Part shown: in pieces, positions 61 through 60,644 of the stretch
How the letters are laid out: each line of letters starts with the position of its first letter
Numbering within the stretch: position 1 is the first letter of the stretch
Assembly (NCBI GenBank): GCA_001599295.1
Contig: BCGN01000001.1
Span: 744,001 to 808,000, forward strand
From: Sporopachydermia quercuum
Lineage: Eukaryota
Length of the DNA stretch: 64,000 nucleotides
Reading direction: 5' to 3'
Translations under genes and position numbers: made by a program
Notes under the pieces: model-generated
Seen by the model: only the letters and a program-made list of their open reading frames with translations
Told to the model about the DNA's origin: nothing
The model's database searches: none

Positions 61-132
61 GACGCGTTTTGTTTGAACCTGTATTTTACTTGAAAAAGAT
101 TTAAATAAATAAGAAGAAAAAACAAACGCGTC
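61..132. promoter_or_regulatory. Two MCB (ACGCGT) boxes within an imperfect inverted repeat
   Basis: ACGCGT at 62-67 and 126-131, within arms gacgcgttttgttt / aaacaaacgcgtc. Probably the promoter of a gene left of the window. Confidence 0.45.
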
Positions 133-19820: not shown

Positions 19821-22454
19821 ATGAGCGTGTGTACCAAGAAGAAAACTAATAAAGTTATGGATAGAGAAAATACACAGTTTTATATTAATAGCGATGATAG
19901 TGGTGCTGAAAGTGGATCAGAGTCGGAAGCAGGCACAAAACTGAGACCAAGACGGATGGACCGATCAAGACTACAATCTACTATTAAAGAAACAGAACAT
20001 AATCCCGATGATGAACATACAGGTAGTGAGTCAGATAGTTACAGTGATAGAGAAGGAAGACTTGGAGGGTCAACTCCTTTTAATGTCTTATCAAAAAAGG
20101 CGACCCACAATGAAAAGGCGTCGCCTAATCAACGTGCTATTCTTGATGGAATAGATCAATCATTCTGGAAGAAATGCGTTGAAATGAGTTTACTGCTGTA
20201 TGTCGTATACTTGACAGGAGCCGTATTAAGATCCACGATTATTGAACATATTCGCACGATAGAATTTTGGTTATGTGTTATATTCACTACTTTGTTAATC
20301 CAGTACCTAAAATCTACACCATCTAAACCATCGCCATTGTCTCCAACACTGCCATCAGATTTTTATAAGATATTCTTTCCACCAATGATAGCTTTGATTT
20401 CTAATCCATCCAACTATTTTATGCTGGAGTTGAATATGATATTAAGCTTAAACTCTCTTTTTATCAATAAAAACGCTGGTAACGAAGGTATAGGAGGTTT
20501 AGGATTCAAAGGACTGCTAGTCAATTTCATGCAGCTATTTACAATGAGCTTGATAGACTACGAGGAAAAAGGATGCAAGAGGATTTTAGACGATATCTTT
20601 CATACAAATATCGTGGGTTTGTTGTGGGAAGTTCCTGTTGGTTCACACGTAAAACGGTTGGAACTATGGGTATCCCAATTTGCTTCTGTTATTAATAGAA
20701 ACACCTTACTCTCGAAATGGGATTCATCCAGTCTTTTTCCATTAGATCACCTATCAACAATGCCGGCTAATGATCTGATTTATACAGCGGCTGTTTGTTA
20801 TATACTAATGTTATCATTCAGGACGACTTATAGAACCATTGATAAGATAACGCAAAATAGTTTGACTAAAGTTGAAAAGTCATTAGCTTCGACACTACTT
20901 TTGAATTTGCTTTTCACAAACTCTAAGAAGAACTCAACAATAATAACTCAGTTTTTCATTCTTGGCATGATGATTTCTTTTTATATCTCCATGCTGGTTG
21001 TGTTGCTTTTATCTTCATTCGTTCTCCCTTCATTTATAAGCAAACAGCACTATCAGTTCAGCTGGAAAGTATCCAACAATCTCAAAGCAATAGCTAAACT
21101 GATAAGAATGCCACAATATAAGAGGTCGAAAACATTTGATAGCTTAAAAAAGGAAGGATGTATCCTTCTTCAAGTGATTTTTCTTTTCTTGATGGCTTCT
21201 CCAGTGAGAAAGTTATTAGCTAAGCAACTAGGAATGCAAGATCCAGTTTTTTACGTTCTGAAAATGTTTTTTGATTATGTCAGTGAAGGAAATGAATTAT
21301 CAAGAGAATCAATCATTAGAATTAACGTTGCAATTTACTGGGTTTCGTTTTTAGGACCATTGATTCCTTTGATAGATTATCTATCTTCTAAATGGACACT
21401 AGATATTAGACGAAAGGTTTGGCACGGTTGCATTTTATTACTGTTTTTACCTTTTGGCATCTACAACATTGATAATTCAGTCATTAGTTTTGAAGAGATA
21501 ATGAAAGGCGTAAAACCAATAAGTGACCCATTAACTGGGTCTGAAGGTGTTCTAATCTCTGAATCTCTCCTAGAAAGAGACAATTTTATCCAACTAGCGA
21601 TGTCCATAGCTATTGGTGTATTTTGTCTTTTAGAGCTTCTGAGGATTTTAACAATATATCCTTTGGGACCACTACTTCATATTAAACTACAAAAGTTCAT
21701 TGATGAGAGAGACAGTAATGGCCCTGTTATTATTTCACATATTTTTCTTTTGTTAGGAATATCCTTGCCAATTATAATTCCTACAGTTAGACGGGAATCA
21801 CTGATAGTTGCTAGTCCTGACATGTCTCAACATGTGGTACTCCAATTCTTCTATTCGATTGCTAGTCCTTTAGGGATTATATGTCTTGGACTCGGTGATG
21901 CTTCTGCTTCAATCATTGGCCGACGGTTTGGTAGAGTTCGTTGGTTCAACTCCAAAAAGACTTTAGAAGGTAGTTTGGCATTTATGCTTGCTGTTTATAT
22001 AGGACTTTTATTCACAAAGTATGAGTTCAGTACTTATGGTACTATTATTGGCATAGAGTATAAAACATTCTGTCTGCATTTCCCTTTCGGTTGTAAACCA
22101 AGTACATCAAATCTACAGATGATACTATCTTCCGACGCGGAGGTATTGTCATCTGAGTTTATTTCAGGGAATCCAAATATTTCGACCTGGTTGTTACAAC
22201 GCTTTGGATATAATTGGAATACATTAAGCAATTTCAGAGTTTCTTTATCTGAGCTTTATTTGAGAATACCGGAAATTCATTATGGATTGAAAGAAATGTT
22301 CATTATCTCAAGTTGCACCAGTTTATTAGAAGCAACAAGTGGAATGAATGATAACGTCATAGTCCCTATTTTTATGCATATCTTACATACTCTCCTGAAC
22401 GATAAAGCCAGAATATCAGCATCACAACAATATAAAAAAATTTATGCTCAATAG
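19821..22454 (+). CDS. SEC59: Dolichol kinase
   Basis: Multi-TM protein with RRKVWHG, DERD.GPVIISHIFLLLG, LGLGDASASIIGRRFG and KKTLEGSLAF. Confidence 0.93.
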   Translation: MSVCTKKKTNKVMDRENTQFYINSDDSGAESGSESEAGTKLRPRRMDRSRLQSTIKETEHNPDDEHTGSESDSYSDREGRLGGSTPFNVLSKKATHNEKASPNQRAILDGIDQSFWKKCVEMSLLLYVVYLTGAVLRSTIIEHIRTIEFWLCVIFTTLLIQYLKSTPSKPSPLSPTLPSDFYKIFFPPMIALISNPSNYFMLELNMILSLNSLFINKNAGNEGIGGLGFKGLLVNFMQLFTMSLIDYEEKGCKRILDDIFHTNIVGLLWEVPVGSHVKRLELWVSQFASVINRNTLLSKWDSSSLFPLDHLSTMPANDLIYTAAVCYILMLSFRTTYRTIDKITQNSLTKVEKSLASTLLLNLLFTNSKKNSTIITQFFILGMMISFYISMLVVLLLSSFVLPSFISKQHYQFSWKVSNNLKAIAKLIRMPQYKRSKTFDSLKKEGCILLQVIFLFLMASPVRKLLAKQLGMQDPVFYVLKMFFDYVSEGNELSRESIIRINVAIYWVSFLGPLIPLIDYLSSKWTLDIRRKVWHGCILLLFLPFGIYNIDNSVISFEEIMKGVKPISDPLTGSEGVLISESLLERDNFIQLAMSIAIGVFCLLELLRILTIYPLGPLLHIKLQKFIDERDSNGPVIISHIFLLLGISLPIIIPTVRRESLIVASPDMSQHVVLQFFYSIASPLGIICLGLGDASASIIGRRFGRVRWFNSKKTLEGSLAFMLAVYIGLLFTKYEFSTYGTIIGIEYKTFCLHFPFGCKPSTSNLQMILSSDAEVLSSEFISGNPNISTWLLQRFGYNWNTLSNFRVSLSELYLRIPEIHYGLKEMFIISSCTSLLEATSGMNDNVIVPIFMHILHTLLNDKARISASQQYKKIYAQ

Positions 22455-31329: not shown

Positions 31330-32676
31330 ATGAGTCTGTCAGATTTGGCAAAATCGAATCTACTGAATTGGCAGAAAAGCGCTCGCCAAACAGGACACGA
31401 TCAGGAGAATTATGGCTGGCGTGCTCAATCGTTATATGTGCCTAAGAGAAGTTTACCTGCGTTACCTACAACACATCATATCTTAAACTGTGGTGATCTG
31501 CAGTTCATTGAACAGAAGGAGGGTACTCACAATCGCTCAACAAATCCAGATTCAACAGCATCTTCATTCTCAACAAAAAGAGCTGTGAGCTATACTAATC
31601 CTTATGAATTCGTAAGTCAGCGTACTGTTGATGAATATAATATGTCGGATGACAACTGTATGATATGTCAAGATGAAGAAGATGAGGGATATGAAAGTGA
31701 TCGTGATAAAAGCTTTGATTATTGCCATTCTACTAGGCCCAATCGTGAAAGGAGAAGATATGTGTCAATGATGGATACGAGTAACAGTTTTAGTGATAGC
31801 ACTATTAGTTACAACTATCAATTACAACGTCATAGAGATCTTCCTCCATTGCCTACTTTTTCTTCATATAACAATTTCAATAACTCTATCACTCACGACC
31901 TTGACTTGGACTCCTGCTCAATGTCATTATATTATCCATGCAATGAAATAAGAGTGCCAGCAGTCTTCGTTTCTCCGAAAACGTTCAATGGCGCAGCCAA
32001 ATCCTGTGGCGCACAACTACCTTCACCATGTTCTTCTCCAGAACCATTTAAATCTAAAGCGAAATTCAGCAAGGAGAGTAGCAAGAATCAGAAATCAGAA
32101 CTTCATCCAATTGAAATATTGGCTAAAACTGCAAAACCTGTGGTCCAAGTTCACATTGAAAAGAATGATGATTTCCTACCAAATAAGAGGGCCTCTATTT
32201 TATATCCTAGAAGAAAAAGAGCCACAGGAAAACCAACTGGAGAATACAGGAAGGATCCCTTTGTAGTCAATCACAGGACTTTGAGTAATGCTAGTTCTTC
32301 AAGCTATAGTTCAACAGCTAGTCGAAGTTCTAGATCTACTGATTTATCGTCGATAGATTTAAACAATATCATCCCACCAACTGTGCCTGAACATGTTTGC
32401 ATCGATACGTCAAATGAATGGACCATTGAAGATGCCAACTCAAAAGAAGATGAGGGTGAAGATGCAATCATGAAAAGTCATAACTATACAAGAGCGTGTT
32501 CATTTCGAAGGAAATCAGAAGAAGATATGAAGAAGAAAAGTAACTCGATTCCTGATATCAAAGAAGAGTCAGAATCACCAACTGACATTGCATATCTCAG
32601 AAGAAAAGGTGTACCATTGTTTGTATTACCTGGTTATGAGGAAGAGAGAACAGTATTACAAGTTGCAAATTTTTAG
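31330..32676 (+). CDS. Hypothetical low-complexity protein with proline-rich motifs
   Basis: 448-codon ORF from the first ATG. S-rich, with KRSLPALP and RDLPPLP motifs. Confidence 0.7.
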   Translation: MSLSDLAKSNLLNWQKSARQTGHDQENYGWRAQSLYVPKRSLPALPTTHHILNCGDLQFIEQKEGTHNRSTNPDSTASSFSTKRAVSYTNPYEFVSQRTVDEYNMSDDNCMICQDEEDEGYESDRDKSFDYCHSTRPNRERRRYVSMMDTSNSFSDSTISYNYQLQRHRDLPPLPTFSSYNNFNNSITHDLDLDSCSMSLYYPCNEIRVPAVFVSPKTFNGAAKSCGAQLPSPCSSPEPFKSKAKFSKESSKNQKSELHPIEILAKTAKPVVQVHIEKNDDFLPNKRASILYPRRKRATGKPTGEYRKDPFVVNHRTLSNASSSSYSSTASRSSRSTDLSSIDLNNIIPPTVPEHVCIDTSNEWTIEDANSKEDEGEDAIMKSHNYTRACSFRRKSEEDMKKKSNSIPDIKEESESPTDIAYLRRKGVPLFVLPGYEEERTVLQVANF

Positions 32677-37618: not shown

Positions 37619-38653
37619 TCACCTTTTAACTGTTGTATTATGTTCCTCTTCCCATTCTTTCAAGGCGTCTTCCCATTCAGTTTCTGGATCGACTGGTTTC
37701 TTCTGCTTTTCGTATTCCTCAATTTCTTGACCTTCTCGTTCATCTCTTGCTTTTTCATATGCTTCTTTATTTTCAATCCATCGCTCCTGTATGTCAATTG
37801 CTTGATTAAGGTAGCCTCCTTGTCTAGTAACCTCAGTCCAAATACTATCACCACCTATTTCGCTAGTCCCAAATGTATAGCCATTTGATTTATCTATAAC
37901 TGCGAGCAAAGAAATCATAGATTGTTTATCCTCGACAGCTAAAACTTCGTAACTAACTAGTCCAAAACTTGATACGACATCTGCTATTGCTTCTGTCAAT
38001 TTAGCATATTTCTTCCCTAAAGCAGACTTCTGCTCATTCTCTATCGCCGGCTGTAAATATGACAAATCCTGCACCTCTGTATAAAAATCAAGATTAAATT
38101 CAAGTTTGCCATAGTTACTAAGCAAATCAATTTTGCTTAGTACATTAACACATGGTAGTTCAAAATGCAACATAGATCTAAGAGTCAAAAGAAGTACTGA
38201 GATATACTGTGATGGAGAAGTGATATAGTAAGAATCCACAAGACTCACAATGCAAAACCTGTAATCAAGCTCTTTCTGTAGTTTCCTGAAAATAACTTGT
38301 AAGCTTCCATGATGTGTAAAAAGTTCAACCTGGCCAGGACAATCTATTAGTAAGTACTCCTGCTTGCCTAACTTTCGTACTTCATTTATTAGTTCATTTG
38401 ACAATTCTTCTATTTCTTCTACAGCGTACATTATAGCACCATTAGGACCAAGATTTTGTTCCTCCATTACTTCCTCAAGAGTTATATAGTCTCTTATATC
38501 AATAGCCACTGGATAATTCAAATTATCGTTAGCAGGGTCCAAATTGATTATTGATGCCTTCCTACCTATGGCTGATAAGAATTGGAACATTCCGTAGCAG
38601 TACGTTGATTTTCCAGCCCCAGGGGGGCCAATAACAATTTGTCCAAATGACAT
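37619..38653 (-). CDS. GPN2: GPN-loop GTPase 2
   Basis: GQIVIGPPGAGKSTYC, NLDPAND, LGPNG, DCPGQVELFTHH, NVLSKIDL. Confidence 0.95.
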   Translation of the reverse strand: MSFGQIVIGPPGAGKSTYCYGMFQFLSAIGRKASIINLDPANDNLNYPVAIDIRDYITLEEVMEEQNLGPNGAIMYAVEEIEELSNELINEVRKLGKQEYLLIDCPGQVELFTHHGSLQVIFRKLQKELDYRFCIVSLVDSYYITSPSQYISVLLLTLRSMLHFELPCVNVLSKIDLLSNYGKLEFNLDFYTEVQDLSYLQPAIENEQKSALGKKYAKLTEAIADVVSSFGLVSYEVLAVEDKQSMISLLAVIDKSNGYTFGTSEIGGDSIWTEVTRQGGYLNQAIDIQERWIENKEAYEKARDEREGQEIEEYEKQKKPVDPETEWEDALKEWEEEHNTTVKR

Positions 38654-39080: not shown

Positions 39081-40223
39081 CTATTTTAAAGAATTCTCAT
39101 CCGTAAAAGGATTCAGACTTTCCTGTGAACGGGCTTTAGTAGTTGGGTCATACTCTAAATCAAGAAGCACACTTCCAGCTGAGCTGAAAGTGGAGGCTCT
39201 GGTTTTGGTATCAACTGTTGAGTCAACGTCATTTGAACTAGGCTGCTCTGATTGATTGGGCACGTTATACTTACTAGCTTTGGAAATCATAGTAGGAACA
39301 CCATCATTTTCGTGAACACTATAAGCATCTATGTCCTCCAGAGTTAAATCAAAGTTTGACTCAGAAGTTGAAACTGTTGATACTGACCGTTTGTCAGCTA
39401 AGCTGACTAATCTAGCATTTGCTCTAACTGCTGTCATTAAAGAAGGCTGAAGGACTGCTGATCCTCTCGAAGCTACTGATAAACGAGATTGATCCTCTGA
39501 ATCGTCATCACTAGAATAGTTATTGTCAACGGCAAATGAAACCTGTCTCTTGTATGATTTTTGGAATTTGCTAGCTCGAATAGTCACACCAGGAATATAT
39601 GCAATGGGAAGAATATTTGATGCTCTTGACCATATTGTTGATGCAGTGTTAGAAAATGTGGATTCTCGTGATGAAAGAGCTATTCTAGAGCCAGTTATGT
39701 TGGCATTATATCTCGTATTTCTGGCAGTCGTATGCATCTTTTCTAAATCTGCTAACCTCTCATCCCCATTGTTTGAACCACTCATCTCATATTCAGCTGC
39801 TTGTCTTAATTTCCTTTCTAATCGCAATCTTCCTCTTGGTGATTTGATACTATAGAAGTATTTCCATATAAGAATACTCAGCGTCAGTCCCAAAACTACT
39901 ATACCAGCTACCAGGCCTCCAGCAATTGGCCCCACATTGTTTGGTTCTCCCGTGTCGACAGAAGTAGTTGAAGACGAAGTTGACTTCAGTTTTACGCAAA
40001 ATGTAGTGGGACATTCCGTACAAGTTTGAAGCGTCATTGAACAATATTCATCCTCTGCACATGATGGACATGGTGGAACCTCCCCACACGACACGCAACC
40101 AGAGGAAGTATCTTCTCGGGCAAAAATATCTATTGTCCATGTTAGTATTTAGATGTAATAGTGATAATAGTTCATAAGCCTCAGAAGTTCAAAAACCACA
40201 CCAAAAGACATACTATAATCCAT
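39081..40223 (-). CDS. OPY2: Opy2 membrane anchor of HOG/filamentation MAPK signalling
   Basis: Exon 1 40223-40214, intron 40213-40130. Cys-rich GCVSC..PPCPSC..EYC....QTCTECPTTFC domain, single TM, SRASNILPIAYIPGV motif. Confidence 0.92.
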
Positions 40224-46447: not shown

Positions 46448-47639
46448 ATGAGACCTATTGTGTTGTAAGTAATTCATATGTTCAATTTGATGATGAACGA
46501 GCCAAACCAACTCCAAGTTCAAATACTAACTGAATGAATAGACACGGTCATGAAAGACCTTTAAACCAAGTGAAGTATAACAAAGATGGTGATTTAGTGC
46601 TATCTGTATCCAATGACAAAGTGTAAGTATTTAAATTTTGAGTCTGACGCGAGAATCAGTAGTCAGTGAAGTGGCATTATTGAAAGAAGGATGATACTAA
46701 CAAACGTATGATAGGGCATCTATTTGGTACTCACACAACGGGGAGAGATTAGGAACTTTAAGTGGACATAGTGGTGCGATTAAAAGTATTGACATAAGTG
46801 CCGATTCTTCTGTTATTGTAACGGGATCAGCTGATTTTTCTATTAAATTCTGGAATACTCAAACTGGTAAATGCGTCAAGACTCTTCCATTAAGTACTCC
46901 AGTGCGAAGAGTTCAGTTCAATCCCGATTCTACCAAAGTTTTATTGATTACAGATGGGGTTATGGGCTACAAGGGTTCACTCGAGGTTTATAAAGTGGAC
47001 ACAAAAGAGCTTTTAGAAAAGGAAGAAGAATACGAACCTGAATTATTGTGGAAGGTTGATAACACTGGATCTTCCGATGAAAAGTTCACTGTTGCCGGTT
47101 GGTCATATGGTAGTAAATTTATCATTGCTGGACACGAACATGGTTTGGTTTCCAAGTTTGATGGGGAAACTGGAGAATTCATTGCTTCAGAACAAGTTCA
47201 CGAAAAGCTTATCACTGATATACAATTCAACATTGAAGATCAAACTTACTTTATAACTAGTTCCAAAGATAAATCTGCAAGGCTTTTGGATGTTGACGAC
47301 TTGAAAGTCTTGAAAAGTTATTACTCAACTGCACCTGTTAACTCAGCAACCATCACTCCTGTGAAAAACTTCATACTACTTGGAGGTGGTCAGGATGCTA
47401 AGGATGTCACAACTACTTCAGCAAGAGAAGGTAACTTTGAGGCTAAGATTTTCCATAAGATCTTTGAAGACGAAATCGGTAGGATCAAAGGACATTTTGG
47501 TCCTATGAACTGCATTGCTATTCATCCTCAAGGTACTGGTTTTACATCTGGAGGAGAAGAAGGTCTTGTTAGAATCAATCATTTCGATAAAAACTATTTC
47601 GATTTCCAATACGATGTTGAACGAACTGCTGATCTCTGA
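46448..47639 (+). CDS. TIF34: eIF3 subunit i (WD40)
   Basis: Exons 46448-46464, 46542-46622 and 46715-47639. [46 protein letters not shown]. Confidence 0.96.
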
Positions 47640-50368: not shown

Positions 50369-50848
50369 CTATGACGCTCTGCAAAGTAACTCACCACCGA
50401 CTCCCTTATCCGTTGCTTGATCTAAATCCAAAATAACTTTCTTTCCATTAATCTGAGTTCTGACAAGAACTAACTCAGCAGGTTGTGGGGGAGCAATATT
50501 TCTAACTCTTCCACCATGAGCAAATGCATGCAAATCCTCTGGTGACAAAATCACTTTATTATTTGGTTTAGATATCAAGGAAAACTTCTTCAGAACAGGT
50601 CGAATATTATGATACTTCAACCCTACCCAAATTTTTCTAGTGGCTATATTATCAGGTGTTGCTGGTGTATATTCTGGATCAGGTCCTTCAGGTCCTCCTC
50701 GTTGTATTGATGAAATGAAGCCATTTTTATATAGTTGAACGAAAACTTCAAGATTTAATCTGTTAAGAGGAATACTAGTAAGAGGTTTATGAACCCTGCT
50801 CACATTCTGAATGTGAGAACAAACTTTAGCGAGGCTCACTAAAGACAT
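50369..50848 (-). CDS. MRPS8: Mitochondrial ribosomal protein uS8m
   Basis: MSLVSLAKVCSHIQN, GFISSIQRG..GPD, TPDNIATRKIWVGLKY, GGELLCRA. Confidence 0.95.
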   Translation of the reverse strand: MSLVSLAKVCSHIQNVSRVHKPLTSIPLNRLNLEVFVQLYKNGFISSIQRGGPEGPDPEYTPATPDNIATRKIWVGLKYHNIRPVLKKFSLISKPNNKVILSPEDLHAFAHGGRVRNIAPPQPAELVLVRTQINGKKVILDLDQATDKGVGGELLCRAS

Positions 50849-51824: not shown

Positions 51825-52778
51825 ATGTTTGGGGTTCGAGGATTGAAGCCACTGAATCGAGTTGGCGCAATGAGAATAGCCTTAACAAGAGCAAACAGTC
51901 AATATGGATCTCATTTAATCAAAAATGCTAATTTCGTTAGACTAAGTGGCTTCAAAGTGTTCAATAGACAATTCAGTAATACCAGGATATCTTTAGGTCC
52001 AGAAGGAACCCGGCGCGGTGATAAGAATCCTAGATTCAGAGATCTTTTCATTGTCGGTATTGTGTGTTTTGGTCTGTTTGCAGTAGCCGTGAATAGATTG
52101 GATAAGAAAAATCCCAAAAACACACTTACTGAGGAAGAGTTCAAAAATTCAATTGCTCGTAAGAAGTTAGCTTTCGGTCCTGGTGAAATATCTGTTGTCT
52201 TTGTATTAGGAGGACCAGGTGCTGGTAAGGGAACTCAATGTAGTAAATTGACTAAAGACTATGGATTTGTTCATTTATCAGCTGGTGATTTGTTGAGAGC
52301 AGAGCAACAAAGGGAAGGTTCTAAGTATGGTGAATTAATTCAAAACTATATAAAAGAAGGTAAAATTGTACCGCAGGAAATCACAATTGCTTTATTGAAG
52401 AATGCTATAACTGATTCATTGAAATCATCTAACGGAACTAAAAATAAATTCTTGATCGATGGATTTCCAAGAAAGATGGATCAAGCAGTTAAATTCGAAG
52501 AAGAAGTTGCTGTTTCAGATTTGGTTTTGTTTTTCGATTGTCCTGAAGAGGTTATGTTAAAGCGATTGTTAAAGAGAGGTGAAACAAGTGGTAGAATCGA
52601 TGATAATATAGATGCCATTGTCAGAAGGTTCAAAACCTTCACTGAGACTTCAATGCCTGTTGTTGATTACTTTGATACCGTTGGCAAAGTTGTAAAACTC
52701 AGCTGCGAAAAATCTCCTGATGCAGTTTATGAAGATGTGAAAACTGCATTGCATGATAAAATCAATCTTGAACTATAG
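51825..52778 (+). CDS. URA6: UMP-CMP kinase with mitochondrial presequence and Aim36-like TM segment
   Basis: GGPGAGKGTQC P-loop, HLSAGDLLR, FLIDGFPRKMDQ, LID RGETSGRIDDN. About 115-aa N-terminal extension, Arg-rich and then one TM. Confidence 0.9.
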   Translation: MFGVRGLKPLNRVGAMRIALTRANSQYGSHLIKNANFVRLSGFKVFNRQFSNTRISLGPEGTRRGDKNPRFRDLFIVGIVCFGLFAVAVNRLDKKNPKNTLTEEEFKNSIARKKLAFGPGEISVVFVLGGPGAGKGTQCSKLTKDYGFVHLSAGDLLRAEQQREGSKYGELIQNYIKEGKIVPQEITIALLKNAITDSLKSSNGTKNKFLIDGFPRKMDQAVKFEEEVAVSDLVLFFDCPEEVMLKRLLKRGETSGRIDDNIDAIVRRFKTFTETSMPVVDYFDTVGKVVKLSCEKSPDAVYEDVKTALHDKINLEL

Positions 52779-52968: not shown

Positions 52969-53670
52969 TTACTTTTTCGTGCTTGAAAATCCAGTAAATC
53001 CCATCGTTGAACTGATTTCAGAGCTTGTTGACGGTGCAATAGGTCCTTTGTCCGTAAATCTTAGGCTTTTCTTCTTTTCGTTTCTTTTTTTGTTACGCCG
53101 TATTCTTCGTTCTTCTTGCATTTGTGCTTCTTTCAATTCAAATTCCCGCCTTCGTTTAATTCTTTCTTGAAAATCAATATCTTCTTGTGTGTTTTTTGCC
53201 TGCTGTTCGTCATATAATTTCTTTAAGGCTTCTTTTACTTCTCTTAATGTACTTGGTGTGCTTATTGTTATATTGGCATTTGACATATCTTTGAAAGTGT
53301 TAGTTAAATGAACCTCTTACATATCTTCCTAAAAGAAATGGACTCAACCAAACTTACGTTGTGGACTGTTATAATGCATTACAAGTGTTAGATTATCCTT
53401 GAATGTCAAATTGCAAACCTCGCAATAGAACCCAACTCCCTTCCCTCGTATACCTACAACATTGACATCGCCAGTAATGACTCTGGCTTCATTTAACCCT
53501 TCGTTGAATTTCAAATCTTCCCGAGCAGTTTGCTTTTTCCTCTCATCTCTCTCTTCATTATTAAAAGACTTGTTCCTTCTTTCTTCCGATTTTTTCTTGT
53601 ATTCTTCTAAGTCCCATGTTTTCCTACCAGTGTCTACAACACCAGCTCCGTAGAATGACTTGTCCGTCAT
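52969..53670 (-). CDS. SNU23: U4/U6.U5 tri-snRNP zinc-finger protein Snu23
   Basis: Exon 1 53670-53358; intron 53357-53289 (AAG acceptor) restores the zinc finger GFYCEVCNLTFKDNL...HYNSPQH. GRKTWDLEEY motif. Confidence 0.92.
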
Positions 53671-54192: not shown

Positions 54193-55047
54193 ATGGCTAA
54201 TGACATACTACAAATGCTAGGTAGAAAAAGAGTGAGGAATGAAGAATCTGATAAAGAAACCAATATTAATAAAGTAAAGAAATCAGTTGTGAACAAACTG
54301 GAAAGCAATATAACTAACAAGAATGGTTGCCGTGTAACATGGGCAAGTAAAGGCACATATCTGTTGAAAGGCACTGTAAAATCCGATTTCAAACGAAAGG
54401 AAGAAAAGTCTAAGAAAGTAGCGATTGCAGCTTTTGATATGGATTCTACAATTGTTAAAACGAAATCAAGCACCTCGAGATTCGCTAGAGGACCTGATGA
54501 CTGGGTATGGTTCAATGATGCGACCAAGGATATACTACAAAAGATTTATAAGAACAGGAGAGAAGATTTAGAGACTACATTAAGAGAGAAGCTATTCAAA
54601 ACCGATGTACCATACGTATTGGTAATCTTGTCTAATCAAGGTGGAGTAACATTACCACAGTCAAATAAAGGAGCAGTGTCCTTGAAATCAAGAGTTGAGA
54701 AGATCCTATGTGATTTATGTGAAAAGATAGAAGAGAAACCCTTGCCAATATACTTCTATGGTGCTACAAAAAGGCCCGCGAAAGAAAAATCAAAATTGGC
54801 TGAAGAGATGCACGAAAAATACCGTAAACCAAAAATTGGCATGTGGCAGGAATTGATTGAAGATCTAAAATCTATTTCAGATGAAGTAGATATTGGGAAC
54901 AGCTATTATGTTGGGGATGCCGGTGGTAGACCTGGTGATTTTGCGGATACTGACAAATTATTTGCTGAGAATGCCAATATAACTTTTTACGTCCCAGAGG
55001 AGATCTTCGATTTGAAAACAATTCACTCAAAGCAAGGAATTGAATAA
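54193..55047 (+). CDS. TPP1: DNA 3'-phosphatase (HAD, PNK3P family) without kinase domain
   Basis: AAFDMDSTIVKTKS, ILSNQGGV, YRKPKIGMW, YVGDAGGRPGDFADTD. First in-frame ATG at 54193. Confidence 0.9.
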   Translation: MANDILQMLGRKRVRNEESDKETNINKVKKSVVNKLESNITNKNGCRVTWASKGTYLLKGTVKSDFKRKEEKSKKVAIAAFDMDSTIVKTKSSTSRFARGPDDWVWFNDATKDILQKIYKNRREDLETTLREKLFKTDVPYVLVILSNQGGVTLPQSNKGAVSLKSRVEKILCDLCEKIEEKPLPIYFYGATKRPAKEKSKLAEEMHEKYRKPKIGMWQELIEDLKSISDEVDIGNSYYVGDAGGRPGDFADTDKLFAENANITFYVPEEIFDLKTIHSKQGIE

Positions 55048-55606: not shown

Positions 55607-56173
55607 TTACTCGGCCTCAATGGTTCCTCTTTCTGAGACGTAGATACCATCTAAGAACTTTCTGATATCCTTGTTTCTGACACGGCAGATTTGTTGAACG
55701 TCAGCGGCACATTGAGAAACATTTTCCAAAGAGTTACCGGTTAAGATGAGTTCATCCTTTTGAGCAGTTGAAATTTCAACAGTGACACCTTCGTGAATTT
55801 TGACTTGTCTAACTCTCTTTTCACCCAAGAAATTTCTAATTTCGACAATGGTTCCGTTTTCAACAACATTGACATTGATAGGGAAATGGGCATATACATA
55901 TCTCATTTTGTATTTGAAACCCTTGGTGACACCTGTTATCATATTGGCAACCAAAGACTTAACAGTTCTCAAAGTAGCGACATGCTTTCTATCACCGTGT
56001 AAGACGGAGACCTTGATAAGTTCATTGCTGACCTTATTGAAGGTGACATCAACGTGTCTTAAGTTCTTGGTCAATTCACCTCTAGGTCCCTTAACATGAA
56101 CAATTCTGGCCTTGATGTTAACGGTGACTCCGTCAGGAATGGGTAAGTCAACTTCGGTCTTGATGAACTTCAT
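55607..56173 (-). CDS. RPL9: 60S ribosomal protein uL6 (L9)
   Basis: [40 protein letters not shown]. Intronless. Confidence 0.97.
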
Positions 56174-56489
56174 TTTGATTATTTGTTGTATATGTGTTTG
56201 AGTGCCGTTAAGATATCTTAATCGAAAAAATCTAACAATAATCAAAATGATTATTTCACCTGGATCTACACTATAGAAATTGTGTAGATAAAAATCAAGT
56301 TGATAAGTACGAAAACTTCCCTGAGCGTAGAAGGGATACGGATTGTGTCTCCCTGCCTTTCCCAATGACAGAGTCCTACAAACCCGCTCCAACATTGAGA
56401 CAGCAGTTGAATTTTTCACTAGAGAAGCGTTCTACTATCCCTCTTTATTGAGAAAACATGAATTTCCGAAACGGGACAAACTATTTTTA

Positions 56490-56938: not shown

Positions 56939-57679
56939 ATGTTTTCCAGAAGACTGGTTTCATCACTAAGGGTTCTTGCGCGCCCATATCCAAGCCAACA
57001 ATTGGTTCAAACTAGAGCTCTTTCGGCTTATATTTCAGTTGGTAATTTCTCTCTTTACTCTGAACAGCGTGAAAAAGAAATCAGACAGATTTTAGATTCG
57101 TTACCAAAGGTGGGCTCCATTTTTCAAAATGCCGATGGATCTGTTAGAATCCCAACTGATGCTGAATTACGAGCAGCAGCTGAATTGCAACATTATGCTC
57201 AAATGAAAAGATACACATTTATTGACACGTTTAGACTAAGTAAAGAACAAATGCAACTATTAATGGCAAATAGTAGAGGACTCAGACACTACTCAGATAA
57301 TAGAAAGATCATTGACAAAATTCCTTATGAAGATCACCAAACAGGTGAAACCAAGTGGAAAGTGGTGAGAGAAGGTCATACTGAAGGCTGGGAGGGTCCA
57401 TTCTTTTACTGGTATTTACCTACATTATTAGTAGCCGGCTTAGTTTATTTCTCCAAAGCTCATACTGGTATTCAAGACTGGGCATTGGAAGAAATCAACA
57501 GAAGAGCTCAAGATCAATACGATGCATCAAGTGAAGAATTACCAGCGGAAGCCACCACTCCAGAAGCTATTAAGAAGCGCGATTCCATTTTGGTTGAAAG
57601 AATCTTATCAGGTGAATACGACAGACTACAAGATCTCACTACACCTACAAAGAAGGGTGTCATTCCAGTTTTGGACTAA
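56939..57679 (+). CDS. Complex I accessory subunit ESSS/NDUFB11 (NESM-like)
   Basis: Mitochondrial presequence; EGWE + TM + K..TGIQDWALEE..RR signature. Confidence 0.82.
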   Translation: MFSRRLVSSLRVLARPYPSQQLVQTRALSAYISVGNFSLYSEQREKEIRQILDSLPKVGSIFQNADGSVRIPTDAELRAAAELQHYAQMKRYTFIDTFRLSKEQMQLLMANSRGLRHYSDNRKIIDKIPYEDHQTGETKWKVVREGHTEGWEGPFFYWYLPTLLVAGLVYFSKAHTGIQDWALEEINRRAQDQYDASSEELPAEATTPEAIKKRDSILVERILSGEYDRLQDLTTPTKKGVIPVLD

Positions 57680-58059: not shown

Positions 58060-59151
58060 TCACTTATGTGATAACCGTTTGCCAATACCTTTTTCCTTGT
58101 CTTTATTCTCATCATCATCATCCGCTATTGCATAATTATCAATCTTGCTATCCCGCGATCTGAACATATCTCTTACATTGCTAATACTGGTATTAGAGCT
58201 ACTGCTAGATTTATAATCCTCGTCTCTCAAACTAGCATATGTTCTGTCTCCTAAATGTGCAATGGCGTTTCTGCTAGACGCACTATCACTCGAAACTGTA
58301 CTCATTGAATTTGACCTAAGTAAACCGTCCTGAAGATAATCAGTTGAGAGGATCTCTGCAATGGAATTTCCATTGGTATGTGAATTTGAATGTGAATATG
58401 ATCGTATATGTGAACCGGAAGACTTGTGTGCGTGTAGAAGTTCGGGTCTTTGTTTTTTGTCAAGTGATTGCGCTTCCTTTTTTTCTTCAATCAGCATTTG
58501 AGAAGCCAACAATCCCAATGTATCGAGCATGAGATTAGGAGAAACCGGAGCCGTATTCTTCTGAGACCTTCTTAGTGAAACCTGTTTCTGCAATAAAGCT
58601 AATTGCGCATCTTTTTCCGCATTCTCTGCAATATAACTTTTCAGTCTCGTTTGAAGGTTTAATATCTTGTCAATATACGTTTCATATAACTCAGCATTGG
58701 ATATCAAATCATTAACGTTCTTGAGTCTTTCTACTTCACGCTTATTTATGGTATTCTCAACAGCATACCTTCGTTGAACTGACTCAGCATCTATAGTTTT
58801 CAATTGGGACTCAAGTTGTAACTGTGCGATTTCTGAGGTTGAAGCTTTCAACTCAGTTTGTACATTTTCTAGTAGTTCCAGCTTCCGTAGTAATAGAAAC
58901 TGAAGATCTTCTTTTGATTGGATGTCTATATCTTGTTTCAAATCCTCTTGACGTGCCAGTAATCGTTTGTCTATCTCGAATGTTCGTTCCGCGGCCTTCC
59001 CAATTATCTCGTGCCTACCATTTTCCAGTACTGTATCCTCATCAGGCATGAAGCTTTTTTGAGAATCTTCAGGCGTAACAAGTCCATTGTCAATTCGCCT
59101 GTGAATCTCTTCTGATGATTCGTTGTTCTTCTTGAGAGCCATTTGAGCCAT
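58060..59151 (-). CDS. Hypothetical coiled-coil protein
   Basis: 363-aa ORF with a heptad N-terminal half and S-rich tail. ACGCGT at 59160-59165 and ACGCGA at 59184-59189 lie just upstream. Confidence 0.75.
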   Translation of the reverse strand: MAQMALKKNNESSEEIHRRIDNGLVTPEDSQKSFMPDEDTVLENGRHEIIGKAAERTFEIDKRLLARQEDLKQDIDIQSKEDLQFLLLRKLELLENVQTELKASTSEIAQLQLESQLKTIDAESVQRRYAVENTINKREVERLKNVNDLISNAELYETYIDKILNLQTRLKSYIAENAEKDAQLALLQKQVSLRRSQKNTAPVSPNLMLDTLGLLASQMLIEEKKEAQSLDKKQRPELLHAHKSSGSHIRSYSHSNSHTNGNSIAEILSTDYLQDGLLRSNSMSTVSSDSASSRNAIAHLGDRTYASLRDEDYKSSSSSNTSISNVRDMFRSRDSKIDNYAIADDDDENKDKEKGIGKRLSHK

Positions 59152-59841
59152 AATGTGAAACGCGTCCGGTTGTATAATAAATGACGCGACACTTTGCTCT
59201 CAAAGACTCCTGAAAAACCCCATTACAACAGTATCATAAAACCCAGAATATTTTTCTTAATATCTATTAGTAATACGCTATATATCAGCATATATTCACA
59301 CCACACTTGTTATTCATATTGAACGGGTACTCTTCTGTCACGTCGTTTGAGTTTTCATGTTTATGATAACTAGACCATTTGCACTCACGCCTAAGACAGC
59401 AGATTAATGCATTGTTTCTACCAGTAAACAACTGCATGTTTCTGCAAGAGTAAAATTAGAAGTTATATAATATTACGTTATCATTTAATGGCTTTGATGT
59501 ACCACTTGATGTAACACAAACAGAAATCAAATGTATATAAAAGATGAAGAAAAAAAGAATGGGAAAGGAATGTCATGCTACTATACATCAATCACATCCA
59601 TGAGCAGATTGAATAAGAAAAATCATACATATTTGTTAGAGAAGATTTTTGACAAGCAAATAATAGCTCCTTAAGAAACATCAAGTCTTGTCTGGAGTCA
59701 ATGAGCTGAAATGGGTAAAATACTGAATACCCTACGTAAATGTGCAATACATTAATGATTATCCTCCATTATGAGTATATTTTTATATATGGGATACACT
59801 TAAAACGTAGCACCTCAGAAAATGTGAAAGATATGATACGC

Positions 59842-60644
59842 TTAACGGTAAGACTTTTGGTAACGAGCACGGGCACCTGGACCACCAAACTTCTTTGGTT
59901 CAGATCTTCTGAAATCGGCAATCAACAAGGTTCTGTCGTAAGCGGTGAAGGCTTTCTTCAATTCATTCTTGGATTGTTCGTCAACGTATTTCTGATGATA
60001 AGCAACAATACCCTTTGCAATGGCTTGTCTGATGGCATAAACTTGAGAAACATGACCACCGCCGGTGACTCTAACTCTGATATCAATATTGGCGAATTTT
60101 TCAAGTCCAACAACCAAAAGAGGTTCATAGACCTTGAATCTCAAAAGTTCAGGTTCAACCAAAGTGATAGGAGAACCGTTGACCTTGATGAGACCCTTAC
60201 CAGCCTTAACATGGGCTACAGCAGTAGCGGTCTTCTTCTTACCGAAGGTCTATAAATTGGTTAGTATTGCTCGCTTTACAAATTAGTATGGAAAACCCAA
60301 TAATACAGCCTAGTTTGAATTTTCTATTCTCCGTCAATCCTTCATCATCTATCTGGCTATAACCCTGAATGATATATAATAAATTTCTTGTGTTAAAAAT
60401 TATTGTAGACTACGAGATCCTTCCACAATTCTACTACCTTGTCTGAAATCCATGCTGACTGAAAACAGATATTTGACTTATACCTTCTTTGAATATATCG
60501 TAATATTTATCTTTTTGTAAGTCATTATTCATCAATTCCGTATCTTGATTGAACCCCAGAAGACGATGTTAAATAAATCAAACAGATGGTGGTTTCCTTT
60601 TCTTCCGTAAAATTAGAACATACTTGCACACTAGGAGTAGACAT
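59842..60644 (-). CDS. RPS16: 40S ribosomal protein uS9 (S16)
   Basis: Exon 1 60644-60624, intron 60623-60250 (374 nt). [33 protein letters not shown]. Confidence 0.98.

What the first reader, a model, noticed from the sequence alone, without database searches (positions are those of the whole stretch)
51825..52778. Intact UMP-CMP kinase at the AIM36 locus: Aim36 may be a dead nucleotide kinase
Seen: presequence, then PRFRDLFIVGIVCFGLFAVAVNRLDKKNPKNTLTEEEF..RKKLAFGPGEISVVFVL, running directly into a complete Ura6-type kinase. Known, from memory: S. cerevisiae Aim36/Fmp39, a mitochondrial membrane protein of unclear molecular function, has a very similar P.F..IF.V....F...V..LDK..PK.TLSEEEF...RR...F..GE.. 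segment but no P-loop. AIM36 lies divergent from MRPS8 and next to TPP1, the arrangement seen here apart from the intervening SNU23. Inference: the ancestral gene was a membrane-anchored mitochondrial UMP/CMP kinase that later split into soluble Ura6 and a pseudokinase Aim36. There is also no Met between the TM and the P-loop, so a soluble form would need proteolysis, non-AUG initiation or a second gene.
Basis: partly seen in the sequence, partly recalled or inferred. Interest (0 to 1): 0.75.

Follow-up and report, generated by a model that had tools for sequence, protein, structure and literature searches.

The report
Membrane-anchored UMP kinase; Aim36's living relative
This yeast gene encodes a complete UMP/CMP kinase tethered by a mitochondrial targeting signal and membrane anchor, and it shows that Aim36, a yeast mitochondrial protein of unknown function, is a degenerate, catalytically dead relative of that enzyme.

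Summary
The ORF at 51825-52778 (+, 317 aa) is real. Residues 123-312 are an intact Ura6-type UMP/CMP kinase (Pfam ADK E 2e-47; S. cerevisiae uridylate kinase 1UKY E 1e-87). Residues 1-122 are a basic presequence, one hydrophobic anchor and a linker. The only significant match of that N-terminal part among 1.8 billion proteins is an Aim36-family protein (E 4.9e-4). Full-length Aim36 aligns with the window protein through the kinase core (BLASTP E 9e-19). It also matches S. cerevisiae Ura6, which has no anchor (E 1e-6; hhalign 94%, though two profile rows carry part of the linker). Aim36 has lost the P-loop, a 34-residue LID block and the C-terminal helix, and Pfam ADK does not detect it. So the claim that Aim36 is a dead nucleotide kinase is supported. 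One correction: an anchored Ura6 is the rule in ascomycete yeasts (52 of 58 examined), not an oddity. Saccharomycetaceae Ura6 keeps a different anchor (Pfam YKL023C-A). Aim36 keeps the older anchor type seen here and in Dipodascomycetes (hhalign 99%). It remains open whether this gene is a still-active Aim36 ortholog or the gene before duplication. No paper found by my searches links AIM36 to kinases.

The parts
51825..52778 (+). Whole ORF, 317 aa plus stop: presequence, membrane anchor, linker and UMP/CMP kinase
   Evidence: ORF and DNA; kinase family
51825..51974 (+). Putative mitochondrial presequence, residues 1-50. R48-Q-F50|S51 fits the R-3 processing motif (motif recalled). An R-x-[YF]-[SA] motif sits at the same place in type A relatives and in Aim36.
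   Evidence: 10 K/R and 0 D/E in the first 59 aa; aligned R.YS motif. Import and cleavage are inferred, not shown.
52041..52091 (+). Single hydrophobic anchor, residues 73-89
   Evidence: Best 17-residue Kyte-Doolittle window, mean 2.56. It aligns with the Aim36 helix 67-90 of the AF2 models.
52092..52190 (+). Linker, residues 90-122 (NRLDKKNPKNTLTEEEF...KKLAFGPGEI), shared with Aim36 and with the 'type A' Ura6 of Dipodascomycetes
   Evidence: hhalign on the extensions alone, Aim36 against type A, 99.0%, E 3.8e-18
52191..52760 (+). UMP/CMP kinase domain, residues 123-312
   Evidence: Pfam ADK 127-286, E 2.1e-47; 1uky E 1.1e-87, query 114-312; 66.7% identity to S. cerevisiae Ura6 over 198 aa
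52209..52235 (+). P-loop GGPGAGKGT, residues 129-137. Intact here; TTLPDIKSA at the same columns in Aim36 P0122.
52575..52607 (+). LID segment RGETSGRIDDN, residues 251-261. Intact here; it lies inside the 34-residue block that Aim36 lacks.
   Evidence: invariant R/D columns of Ura6
50369..50848 (-). MRPS8-like gene, divergent neighbour, 976 bp between the two start codons
   Evidence: Pfam Ribosomal_S8 E 6.9e-9. In S. cerevisiae MRPS8=YMR158W is numbered next to AIM36=YMR157C.
52969..53670 (-). SNU23-like zinc-finger gene, two exons with a 69-nt intron at 53289-53357
   Evidence: Pfam zf-met / zf-C2H2_jaz; the splice junction restores the second His of the finger
54193..55047 (+). TPP1-like DNA 3'-phosphatase gene, same orientation as the kinase gene
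   Evidence: Pfam PNK3P E 1.8e-39

Best explanation
The gene encodes an active UMP/CMP kinase of the Ura6 family made as a mitochondrial precursor. A basic presequence directs import. A single hydrophobic segment arrests in the inner membrane. The complete kinase domain then hangs from the membrane on a 33-residue linker. I infer that the domain faces the intermembrane space, where UMP, CMP and ATP exchange freely with the cytosol. No AUG lies between the anchor and the P-loop, so no soluble form can be made by ordinary internal initiation. This anchored architecture is the ancestral, common state of Ura6 in ascomycete yeasts. The Aim36 (YMR157C/Fmp39) family of Saccharomycetaceae descends from the same kind of anchored kinase. 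It kept the presequence, the anchor, the linker and the beta/alpha core of the fold. It lost the P-loop, the LID with its arginines and the C-terminal helix, so it is a membrane-anchored pseudo-kinase. The window gene sits where AIM36 sits in S. cerevisiae: divergent from MRPS8 and upstream of TPP1. It is therefore the positional counterpart of AIM36, either the gene as it was before duplication or an Aim36 ortholog that never decayed. Shown: the ORF, the intact motifs, the homology and the losses in Aim36. Inferred: import, cleavage site, topology, enzymatic activity and orthology.
For: Kinase: Pfam ADK 161.4 bits. 1uky E 1.1e-87. 66.7% identity to S. cerevisiae Ura6. All columns invariant in Ura6 alignment A2 (P-loop K, LLR, DGFPR, RG..SGR.DD, KRF) are present. 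Anchor: 10 K/R and 0 D/E in the first 59 aa; hydrophobic window 73-89; Met only at 1, 16, 218, 244, 277. Link to Aim36: the N-terminal 127 aa against 1.84e9 proteins gave 1 hit at E<=0.001, which is Aim36 family. BLASTP of full lengths gave E 9e-19 over 206 aa and 1e-16 over 222 aa, running through the kinase core. Aim36 against anchor-less S. cerevisiae Ura6 gave E 1e-6. hhalign gave 94.2%, E 1.2e-7, 163 columns; two of the five Ura6 rows carry part of the linker. The Aim36 profile against 177,635 PDB sequences gave 2 hits at E<=10, and the only one below 0.01 is yeast uridylate kinase, matched in the kinase-derived part. In shuffle controls on the part after PGEI, 0 of 1000 shuffles reached the observed score in 9 of 9 comparisons, z 5.9-11. 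An AF2 model of Aim36 with a 60-row alignment had C-domain pLDDT 86-97; its best Foldseek match was 1uky, E 1.7e-6, TM 0.53, and nearly all listed hits were adenylate or UMP/CMP kinases or kinase-like domains. Ancestral state: of 58 fungal Ura6-like proteins of <=360 aa, 55 have >=45 aa before the P-loop and 52 of those have a hydrophobic 17-mer. The Aim36 anchor matches the type A anchor (Yarrowia, Blastobotrys/Trichomonascus, Sugiyamaella, Nadsonia, Magnusiomyces, and the window) at 99.0%, E 3.8e-18. It matches the type B anchor at 75%, E 2.5e-5. S. cerevisiae Aim36 is an integral inner-membrane protein in Vögtle et al. 2017, Supplementary Data 5. Synteny.
Against: No experiment bears on this gene. 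Import, topology and activity are inferred from sequence alone. I could run no mitochondrial-targeting predictor. Orthology with AIM36 is weak. In the kinase-only tree, Aim36 held together with the type B Ura6 clade is not rejected (p-AU 0.47). The Aim36+window sister grouping has support of 17.8 (kinase only) and 76.6 (full length). The Aim36 branch is saturated (length 10). In the N-terminal part alone, the Aim36 profile scores Blastobotrys/Trichomonascus higher (38.0 bits) than the window protein (27.7). Pfam ADK finds nothing in 6 of 6 Aim36 proteins even at E<=10. AF2 on the six Aim36 sequences alone gave a poor model (pLDDT 43.2). The good model used an alignment that contains true kinases, so its fold match is partly circular. 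tblastn with P0122 did not report the locus, whereas P0126 did at E 1.4e-14. The 58 proteins come from a search with a long query and a length window of 174-555 aa, which favours long forms. The S. cerevisiae Aim36 sequence itself was never seen.
Confidence: 0.8

Rival explanations
1. The window gene is a second, mitochondrion-dedicated UMP/CMP kinase: a true Aim36 ortholog that is still active. It coexists with a canonical type B URA6 elsewhere in the genome. Its kinase domain faces the matrix and feeds pyrimidine nucleotides to mtDNA and mtRNA synthesis. Aim36 of Saccharomycetaceae is what remains after that activity became dispensable.
For: Position equivalent to AIM36. Aim36 is sister to the window protein in both best trees. 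The type A anchor is shared with Aim36. The aim36 null phenotype quoted in the Vögtle table is mtDNA loss and poor respiratory growth. Two C. albicans proteome papers came up in the AIM36 search; in the one I opened, AIM36 is listed as a C. albicans protein in a table. This hints that the Aim36 lineage predates the Serinales/Saccharomycetaceae split (its sequence was not seen).
Against: Sister-group support is not significant (76.6 and 17.8). The window protein has a short branch (0.13-0.14) and 66-69% identity to other Ura6 kinase domains, as expected of a sole essential enzyme. All named type A carriers are Dipodascomycetes, where no Aim36 was seen. Only 64 kb of the genome could be searched, and it holds no second copy.
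Confidence: 0.3
2. Aim36 arose late from the type B Ura6 of Saccharomycetaceae, for example at the whole-genome duplication. Its resemblance to the type A anchor of the window protein is convergent or a retained ancestral trait.
For: On kinase-domain columns alone, a clade of Aim36 plus type B is not rejected (p-AU 0.47). The kinase-derived part of Aim36 scores type A and type B kinases about equally, 19-29 bits.
Against: The Aim36 anchor and linker match type A at 99.0%, E 3.8e-18, but type B at only 75%, E 2.5e-5. Non-duplicated Saccharomycetaceae (K. lactis, Torulaspora) already have type B. With full-length columns, Aim36 plus type B is disfavoured (p-AU 0.035). By recall, the sister region of the AIM36 locus in S. 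cerevisiae is on chromosome IV, not at URA6 on chromosome XI.
Confidence: 0.08
3. Only the N-terminal anchor is shared, through domain shuffling or chance similarity of membrane segments. The C-terminal half of Aim36 is unrelated to kinases.
For: Pfam ADK misses Aim36. The Aim36-only AF2 model is poor. Membrane segments can inflate scores.
Against: Anchor-less S. cerevisiae Ura6 matches Aim36 residues 187-237 at E 1e-6. The PDB-wide profile hit to 1uky lies entirely in the C-terminal half. The shuffle controls on the C-terminal part gave z 5.9-11. The alignment is collinear, with conserved [IV]DFP[KR] / FE.E[IV]AV / YF.T..KV blocks. Even the poor model's best Foldseek match is 1uky (E 0.12, not significant).
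Confidence: 0.04
4. The long ORF is not what is translated. The real product is a soluble Ura6 started downstream, and the N-terminal 120 codons are 5' leader.
For: S. cerevisiae Ura6 is short, 204 aa.
Against: There is no AUG between codons 16 and 218. The extension is open and conserved in architecture in 52 of 58 relatives. It is significantly similar to Aim36, a detected protein.
Confidence: 0.05

Closest known systems
S. cerevisiae uridylate kinase Ura6 (PDB 1uky/1ukz)
   Same: The kinase domain is collinear, at 66.7% identity over 198 aa. The P-loop, NMP-site and LID residues are all present.
   Different: S. cerevisiae Ura6 is 204 aa and has no presequence or anchor. The window protein carries 122 extra N-terminal residues.
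Aim36/Fmp39 (YMR157C) family, seen here as Maudiozyma P0122 and P0124 plus four unnamed relatives
   Same: Presequence, R-x-Y-S motif, anchor, LD[KQ][KN].PK..EEE[YF] linker and F.PGEI junction. The core blocks VPQE..ALL, [IV]DFP[KR], FE.E[IV]AV and YF.T..KV are shared. The gene position next to MRPS8 is the same.
   Different: Aim36 has no P-loop (TTLPDIKSA in place of GGPGAGKGT). The R of LLR is D or E. It has a 34-residue LID deletion and no C-terminal helix. It is about 25% identical overall. The window protein has all of these features intact.
'Type A' anchored Ura6 of Dipodascomycetes (Yarrowia lipolytica P0072, Blastobotrys/Trichomonascus P0054, Sugiyamaella P0046, Nadsonia P0093, Magnusiomyces P0116), annotated 'uridylate kinase'
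   Same: The whole architecture and the linker motifs are the same. The kinase domain is up to 69% identical (Yarrowia).
   Different: The window protein has a shorter linker (a 5-column gap). It does not fall robustly inside their clade.
'Type B' anchored Ura6 of Saccharomycetaceae and Serinales, whose N-terminal extension is Pfam PF23521 'YKL023C-A'
   Same: Presequence, a single hydrophobic segment, a [QK]K..P motif, then the kinase.
   Different: The extension sequences are barely related: hhalign A against B gives 18%, E 1.3e-3. The window N-terminus does not match PF23521 even at E<=10. The type B kinases form their own clade (99*, 96*).
Intermembrane-space and membrane-bound nucleotide kinases of mitochondria (adenylate kinase 2, NDP kinase D; human CMPK2 as a mitochondrial UMP/CMP kinase). 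All recalled, none tested.
   Same: The idea of phosphotransfer enzymes stationed at mitochondria.
   Different: These have different families or anchoring modes. By recall, CMPK2 is thymidylate-kinase-like, not Ura6-like.

Membership tests
UMP/CMP kinase (Ura6/CMPK1 type; Pfam ADK PF00406) | Match to the ADK model above the curated cut-off | tested here: met
   161.4 bits against a cut-off of 26.8, residues 127-286
UMP/CMP kinase (Ura6/CMPK1 type; Pfam ADK PF00406) | P-loop G-x-P-G-x-G-K-G-T | tested here: met
   GGPGAGKGT at residues 129-137
UMP/CMP kinase (Ura6/CMPK1 type; Pfam ADK PF00406) | NMP-site and LID arginines and aspartates (LLR, DGFPR, RG..SGR.DD, [KR]RF). Their roles are known by homology with adenylate kinases (recalled). 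| tested here: met
   Present at 156-158, 212-216, 251-261 and 267-269. The same columns are invariant in Ura6 alignment A2.
UMP/CMP kinase (Ura6/CMPK1 type; Pfam ADK PF00406) | Closest solved structures are UMP/CMP kinases rather than adenylate kinases | tested here: met
   1uky 297.5 bits, human and Dictyostelium UMP-CMP kinases 187-202 bits, adenylate kinases <=178 bits
UMP/CMP kinase (Ura6/CMPK1 type; Pfam ADK PF00406) | Phosphorylates UMP/CMP with ATP | not testable with these tools
   Needs an enzyme assay or complementation of a ura6 mutant
Aim36 (YMR157C/Fmp39) family | N-terminal presequence, anchor and linker of the Aim36 type | tested here: met
   Sole hit at E<=0.001 among 1.84e9 proteins; hhalign on the extensions, Aim36 against type A (window included), 99.0%
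Aim36 (YMR157C/Fmp39) family | Degenerate C-terminal domain, as in all 6 Aim36 proteins seen: no P-loop, no LID, about 245-260 aa | tested here: not met
   The window protein has an intact P-loop, LID and C-terminal helix, and is 317 aa. It is a relative of the family, not a member as the family is currently known.
Aim36 (YMR157C/Fmp39) family | Gene divergent from MRPS8 and upstream of TPP1 | tested here: met
   Window gene order. AIM36=YMR157C and MRPS8=YMR158W are in the Vögtle 2017 tables. TPP1=YMR156C is recalled. An SNU23-like gene is intercalated here.
Aim36 (YMR157C/Fmp39) family | Integral protein of the mitochondrial inner membrane | not testable with these tools
   Reported for S. 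cerevisiae Aim36. For the window protein it is only inferred from sequence.
YKL023C-A domain (Pfam PF23521), the N-terminal extension of Saccharomycetaceae Ura6 | Match to PF23521 | tested here: not met
   0 families at E<=10 for residues 1-127. 4 of 8 relatives scanned do match at E<=0.01: K. lactis, Naumovozyma, Vanderwaltozyma, Torulaspora.

The most novel reading that the evidence does not exclude
AIM36 is the positional descendant of the ancestral, essential UMP kinase gene of budding yeasts, and the enzyme originally worked from the mitochondrial inner membrane for the whole cell. In this organism that state survives: the cell's UDP and CDP are made by a kinase tethered at mitochondria, with no soluble isoform. 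In Saccharomycetaceae a transposed copy (URA6, with its own anchor) took over catalysis. In S. cerevisiae that anchor was later split off as the separate small protein YKL023C-A. The copy left at the original locus persisted as a pseudo-kinase, Aim36.
Probability: 0.25. Interest if true: 0.8.

Novelty: new variant of a known kind. Interest (0 to 1): 0.62.

Why it matters
Aim36/Fmp39 is a conserved protein of the mitochondrial inner membrane in the best-studied eukaryote. It has a respiratory and mtDNA-loss phenotype but no assigned fold or function. The Pfam ADK model does not see it as a kinase relative, and it carries no Pfam domain in the database's precomputed list. An evolutionary study dedicated to the URA6 family names only ADK1 and ADK2 as its S. 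cerevisiae relatives in the passages I saw (PMC4625875). The window protein is a bridge sequence that makes the relationship plain, and it turns 'unknown function' into a testable idea: a dead UMP/CMP kinase at the site where pyrimidine nucleotides meet mitochondria. It also shows that the textbook picture of a soluble cytosolic/nuclear Ura6 is a Saccharomyces peculiarity. In most ascomycete yeasts examined here this essential enzyme is encoded with a mitochondrial presequence and a membrane anchor, often with no internal start codon for a soluble form. That raises a concrete question about where cellular UDP and CDP are made.

Tried and rejected
- A word-indexed search with residues 1-125 found nothing: 100 candidates, none at E<=0.01.
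- Pfam on the N-terminal 127 aa found nothing at E<=10.
- The ESM Atlas gave no usable hit for residues 1-122. For Aim36 P0122 it returned only Aim36 clusters with no Pfam family.
The accessions and organisms of the unnamed hits therefore stayed unknown.
- AF2 on the six Aim36 sequences alone gave pLDDT 43.2. Its Foldseek list has 1uky first, but at E 0.12, so I do not count it as evidence.
- I tested the 246-aa ORF at 56939..57679, which has a presequence and a hydrophobic segment, as a possible 'true AIM36'. BLASTP against P0122 gave E 0.03-0.05 over short pieces and Pfam gave no family. I rejected it.
- There is no second Ura6 or Aim36 locus in the window. The only other tblastn hit is a 13-aa P-loop in the GPN-type ORF at 38597-38635.
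- The kinase-only phylogeny cannot place Aim36 (p-AU 0.47). A third AU test, Aim36 with the Saccharomycetaceae subclade, did not finish in the time limit.
- I could not name the organism. No listed hit exceeds 69% identity. RPL9 scores highest with 7pzy, which I recall as the C. albicans ribosome, at 307.8 bits. K. lactis (named by its KLLA0 locus tag) scores 291.4, and the chains I take to be S. cerevisiae score 284.6. The two CTG codons in GSH1 align with F and L of yeast Gcl, and CTG makes up 54 of 638 Leu-box codons. This suggests the standard code, weakly.
- Literature searches: AIM36/FMP39/YMR157C found 14 papers, none with a term in the title or abstract. In the two I opened (PMC5858828, PMC8118320) AIM36 appears in tables and gene lists. 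YKL023C-A found 1 paper, which I saw only in the listing. URA6 + 'N-terminal extension' + mitochondrial found 1 paper, about upstream UUG codons, which is irrelevant. The search 'YKL023C-A, MIN10' was swamped by unrelated 'min10' strings. Four systematic names together found 1 paper, not useful.
So synteny in other yeasts stayed unchecked.
- No complex-prediction job was sent, because I make no binding claim.
Full report
THE OBSERVATION. Residues 127-286 match Pfam ADK at E 2.1e-47, 161.4 bits against a cut-off of 26.8. The best solved structure is S. cerevisiae uridylate kinase 1uky: E 1.1e-87, query 114-312 against chain 7-202. UMP/CMP kinases of human and Dictyostelium come next, and adenylate kinases score lower. 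Identity to S. cerevisiae Ura6 is 66.7% over 198 aa.

The catalytic motifs are all present. The P-loop GGPGAGKGT is at 129-137, LLR at 156-158, DGFPR at 212-216, the LID RGETSGRIDDN at 251-261 and RRF at 267-269. These are the columns that are invariant in an alignment of Ura6 proteins.

Upstream of the kinase, the first 59 residues hold 10 K/R and no D/E. The best hydrophobic 17-mer is residues 73-89. Methionines occur only at 1, 16, 218, 244 and 277.

The neighbours are as described. A Ribosomal_S8 (MRPS8-like) gene lies divergently at 50369..50848 (-). A C2H2 zinc-finger SNU23-like gene lies at 52969..53670 (-). A PNK3P (TPP1-like) gene lies at 54193..55047 (+).

IS THE N-TERMINUS REALLY AIM36-LIKE? 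I scored residues 1-127 alone with HMMER against 1.84 billion representative proteins. Exactly one protein reached E<=0.001: P0121, at E 4.9e-4, 35% identity, query 46-124 against 47-126. A search with P0121 found 7 proteins at E<=0.01, including itself. One is a Maudiozyma saulgeensis protein annotated 'similar to Saccharomyces cerevisiae YMR157C AIM36' (67% identical). [quoted passage not shown] Maudiozyma is a genus of Saccharomycetaceae. The ESM Atlas places P0122 in a cluster named Aim36p, whose representative is 255 aa. That is the length given for S. cerevisiae Aim36 in a proteomics table. I did not see the S. cerevisiae sequence itself.

IS AIM36 A DEAD KINASE? Full-length BLASTP of the window protein against Aim36 P0122 gives E 9e-19 over 206 aa. 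Against P0126 it gives E 1e-16 over 222 aa. Both alignments run from the presequence through the anchor and linker and on into the kinase core.

The kinase similarity does not depend on the anchor.
- S. cerevisiae Ura6 has no anchor, yet it matches Aim36 residues 187-237 at E 1e-6.
- Profile against profile (six Aim36, five mostly short Ura6) gives 94.2% probability, E 1.2e-7, over 163 columns. Two of the five Ura6 rows carry part of the type A linker, and this adds to the score.
- An Aim36 profile searched against 177,635 distinct PDB sequences returns two hits at E<=10. The only one below 0.01 is yeast uridylate kinase (E 0.0044), matched in two stretches that both lie in the C-terminal half.
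- In shuffle controls on the Aim36 part after the PGEI junction, none of 1000 shuffles reached the real score in 9 of 9 comparisons, with z between 5.9 and 11.

The nine-sequence alignment shows what Aim36 kept. It kept the blocks corresponding to VPQE..ALL, FLIDGFPR (as VVIVDFPK or VVIVDFPR), MDQA..FE.E[IV]AV and YF.T..KV. It also shows what Aim36 lost.
- The P-loop is TTLPDIKSA at those columns in P0122.
- The arginine of LLR is D or E.
- A 34-residue block that contains the whole LID is deleted.
- About 27 residues of C-terminal helix are missing.

Pfam ADK detects none of the six Aim36 proteins even at E<=10. This may be why the relationship is not annotated.

The structure predictions need care. 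With the six Aim36 sequences alone, AF2 gave a poor model (pLDDT 43.2). Its Foldseek list is headed by 1uky, but at a non-significant E of 0.12. With a 60-row alignment that also contains the kinases, the model reached pLDDT 77.4 overall and 86-97 over the C-terminal domain. Its best Foldseek match was 1uky (E 1.7e-6, TM 0.53), and nearly all of the listed hits were adenylate or UMP/CMP kinases or kinase-like domains. That result is partly circular, so I treat it as a compatibility check only.

THE ANCHOR IS THE RULE, NOT THE EXCEPTION. A search with the whole protein returned thousands of kinases. Among the 120 listed, 57 are single-domain fungal proteins of <=360 aa. Counting the window protein, that makes 58.
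- 55 of the 58 have at least 45 residues before the P-loop.
- 52 of those 55 have a hydrophobic 17-mer in that stretch.
- 30 of those 52 have no Met between that segment and the P-loop.
- Only the three Saccharomyces sequences are short, at 204 aa.

This sample is biased toward long forms by the query and by the length window of 174-555 aa.

The extensions come in two kinds.
- Type A has the pattern P.[FL]R[YW], a hydrophobic segment, LDKK.PK, TEEEY, basic residues and then AF. It occurs in the window protein and in Yarrowia, Sugiyamaella, Blastobotrys/Trichomonascus, Nadsonia and Magnusiomyces, all placed in or recalled as Dipodascomycetes.
- Type B has the pattern GKGK-LL, a hydrophobic segment and then YQK.P. 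It occurs in K. lactis, Torulaspora, Naumovozyma and Vanderwaltozyma, where it matches Pfam PF23521, a family named 'YKL023C-A' (4 of 8 proteins scanned). By eye it also occurs in Suhomyces and Spathaspora of the Serinales. These two carry PF23521 in the database's precomputed list, but Suhomyces did not match in my scan at E<=0.01.

The window extension does not match PF23521.

On the extensions alone, profile comparison gives these results:
- Aim36 against type A: 99.0%, E 3.8e-18.
- Aim36 against type B: 75%, E 2.5e-5.
- Type A against type B: 18%, E 1.3e-3.

So Aim36 carries the type A anchor, while its sister enzyme in the same genomes carries type B.

PHYLOGENY. Type B kinases form a well-supported clade: SH-aLRT 99 with full-length columns and 96 on kinase columns only. 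The window protein falls outside it. The Aim36 clade sits on a saturated branch of length 10. In both reduced trees its best position is sister to the window protein, but support is 76.6 (full length) and 17.8 (kinase only). Forcing Aim36 together with type B is disfavoured on full-length columns (p-AU 0.035). It is not rejected on kinase columns alone (p-AU 0.47). The argument that Aim36 split off before the type B anchor arose therefore rests mainly on the anchor comparison, not on the kinase tree.

One C. albicans proteomics paper lists an 'AIM36' protein in a table (a second such paper turned up in the search listing, which I did not open). This hints that the Aim36 lineage is older than the split between Serinales and Saccharomycetaceae. 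I did not see that sequence.

SYNTENY. In a published table, AIM36 is YMR157C and MRPS8 is YMR158W. These are adjacent systematic names on opposite strands, which on a right arm means divergent transcription. That is the arrangement in the window. From memory, TPP1 is YMR156C, SNU23 is YDL098C, and the chromosome XIII and IV segments are sister regions of the whole-genome duplication. This fits the window order MRPS8 / kinase / SNU23 / TPP1. An eIF3i gene (TIF34, recalled as YMR146C) lies 4 kb away at 46962..47639. The window gene is therefore the positional counterpart of AIM36. No yeast genome collection was available to test synteny in other species.

HOW IT MOST LIKELY WORKS. What is shown is an intact kinase fused to a basic, acid-free leader and one hydrophobic segment, with no internal AUG.

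What is inferred is the following.
- The leader is a matrix-targeting presequence. R48-Q-F50|S51 fits the R-3 processing motif (recalled), and an R-x-[YF]-[SA] motif aligns at this place in type A relatives and in Aim36.
- The hydrophobic segment stops transfer in the inner membrane.
- The N-terminal flank is more positive than the C-terminal flank, so the N-terminus should stay in the matrix and the kinase should face the intermembrane space.

From that side the enzyme could serve the whole cell, because small nucleotides cross the outer membrane freely (recalled). This would explain how 30 relatives manage without a start codon for a soluble form.

S. cerevisiae Aim36 is classed as an integral inner-membrane protein, and YKL023C-A as a 75-aa inner-membrane-associated protein (Vögtle et al. 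2017, Supplementary Data 5, supplement tables and passages seen). URA6 is essential (passages of two papers). The aim36 null phenotype quoted in the same table is poor respiratory growth and mtDNA loss.

Aim36 is well conserved: 75% mean column identity among six relatives. It is also readily detected, with up to 11 peptides. It is therefore a functional pseudo-enzyme, not a decaying gene.

NOVELTY AND LIMITS. The window gene itself is an ordinary member of the anchored Ura6 group. What is new is the bridge to Aim36. My searches for AIM36/FMP39/YMR157C found 14 papers, none with a term in the title or abstract. In the two I opened, AIM36 appears in tables and gene lists. An evolutionary study of the URA6 family names only ADK1 and ADK2 as S. 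cerevisiae relatives in the passages I saw. The paper library covers open-access papers only. Fold databases that I could not query may already class Aim36 as P-loop-like.

The organism could not be named. GC content is 35%. The evidence on CTG codons weakly favours the standard code. RPL9 scores best with 7pzy, which I recall as the C. albicans ribosome. Only 64 kb of the genome was available, and it holds no second copy. So the choice between 'sole ancestral-type kinase' and 'still-active Aim36 ortholog' stays open.

Noticed in passing
relatives P0078, P0103, P0070, P0091 (not in the window): The N-terminal extension of Saccharomycetaceae Ura6 matches Pfam PF23521, a family named after the S. 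cerevisiae small ORF YKL023C-A. That ORF encodes a 75-aa protein associated with the mitochondrial inner membrane. By its systematic name it lies next to URA6 (YKL024C, recalled) on the same strand. This suggests that S. cerevisiae split an anchored Ura6 into a small anchor protein plus the short soluble kinase. Naumovozyma has a Met just before the kinase domain, which could be an intermediate state.
   Followed up: partly
window 52969-53670 (-): The SNU23-like gene is in two ORFs joined by a 69-nt intron at 53357..53289, with GTAAGT ... AACTAAC ... AG. Splicing creates a CAT codon that supplies the second histidine of the C2H2 finger (H-x5-H).
   Followed up: yes
window 46962-47639 (+): The eIF3i (TIF34-like) ORF matches only positions 116-324 of the 324-position Pfam model. 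The N-terminal third must lie in an upstream exon, so there is at least one intron. Together with the SNU23 intron, this suggests a yeast with more introns than S. cerevisiae.
   Followed up: no
window 56939-57679 (+): A 246-aa ORF with a basic N-terminus (MFSRRLVSSLRVLARP...) and one hydrophobic segment near residue 155-172. It has no Pfam family and is not related to Aim36 (E 0.03). It may be another uncharacterised mitochondrial membrane protein.
   Followed up: partly
window 13986-15830 (-) and 15 ORFs overall: CTG makes up 54 of 638 Leu-box codons. The two CTG codons in the GSH1-like gene (codons 262 and 267) align with Phe and Leu of yeast glutamate-cysteine ligase 3ig5. This weak evidence favours CTG = Leu, i.e. 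not a CUG-Ser yeast. Window GC content is 35.4%.
   Followed up: partly
window 55607-56395 (-): The mechanical 262-aa ORF over RPL9 starts too early. The conserved protein begins at MKFIKTE, giving 189 aa at 55610-56176. Its best PDB match is 7pzy, 'Ribosomal 60S subunit protein L9B', which I recall as the C. albicans ribosome.
   Followed up: partly
window 19821-22454 (+), 31330-32676 (+), 39081-40037 (-), 58060-59151 (-), 59740-60255 (+): Five ORFs of 171-877 aa have no Pfam family at E<=0.001. I did not examine them further.
   Followed up: no
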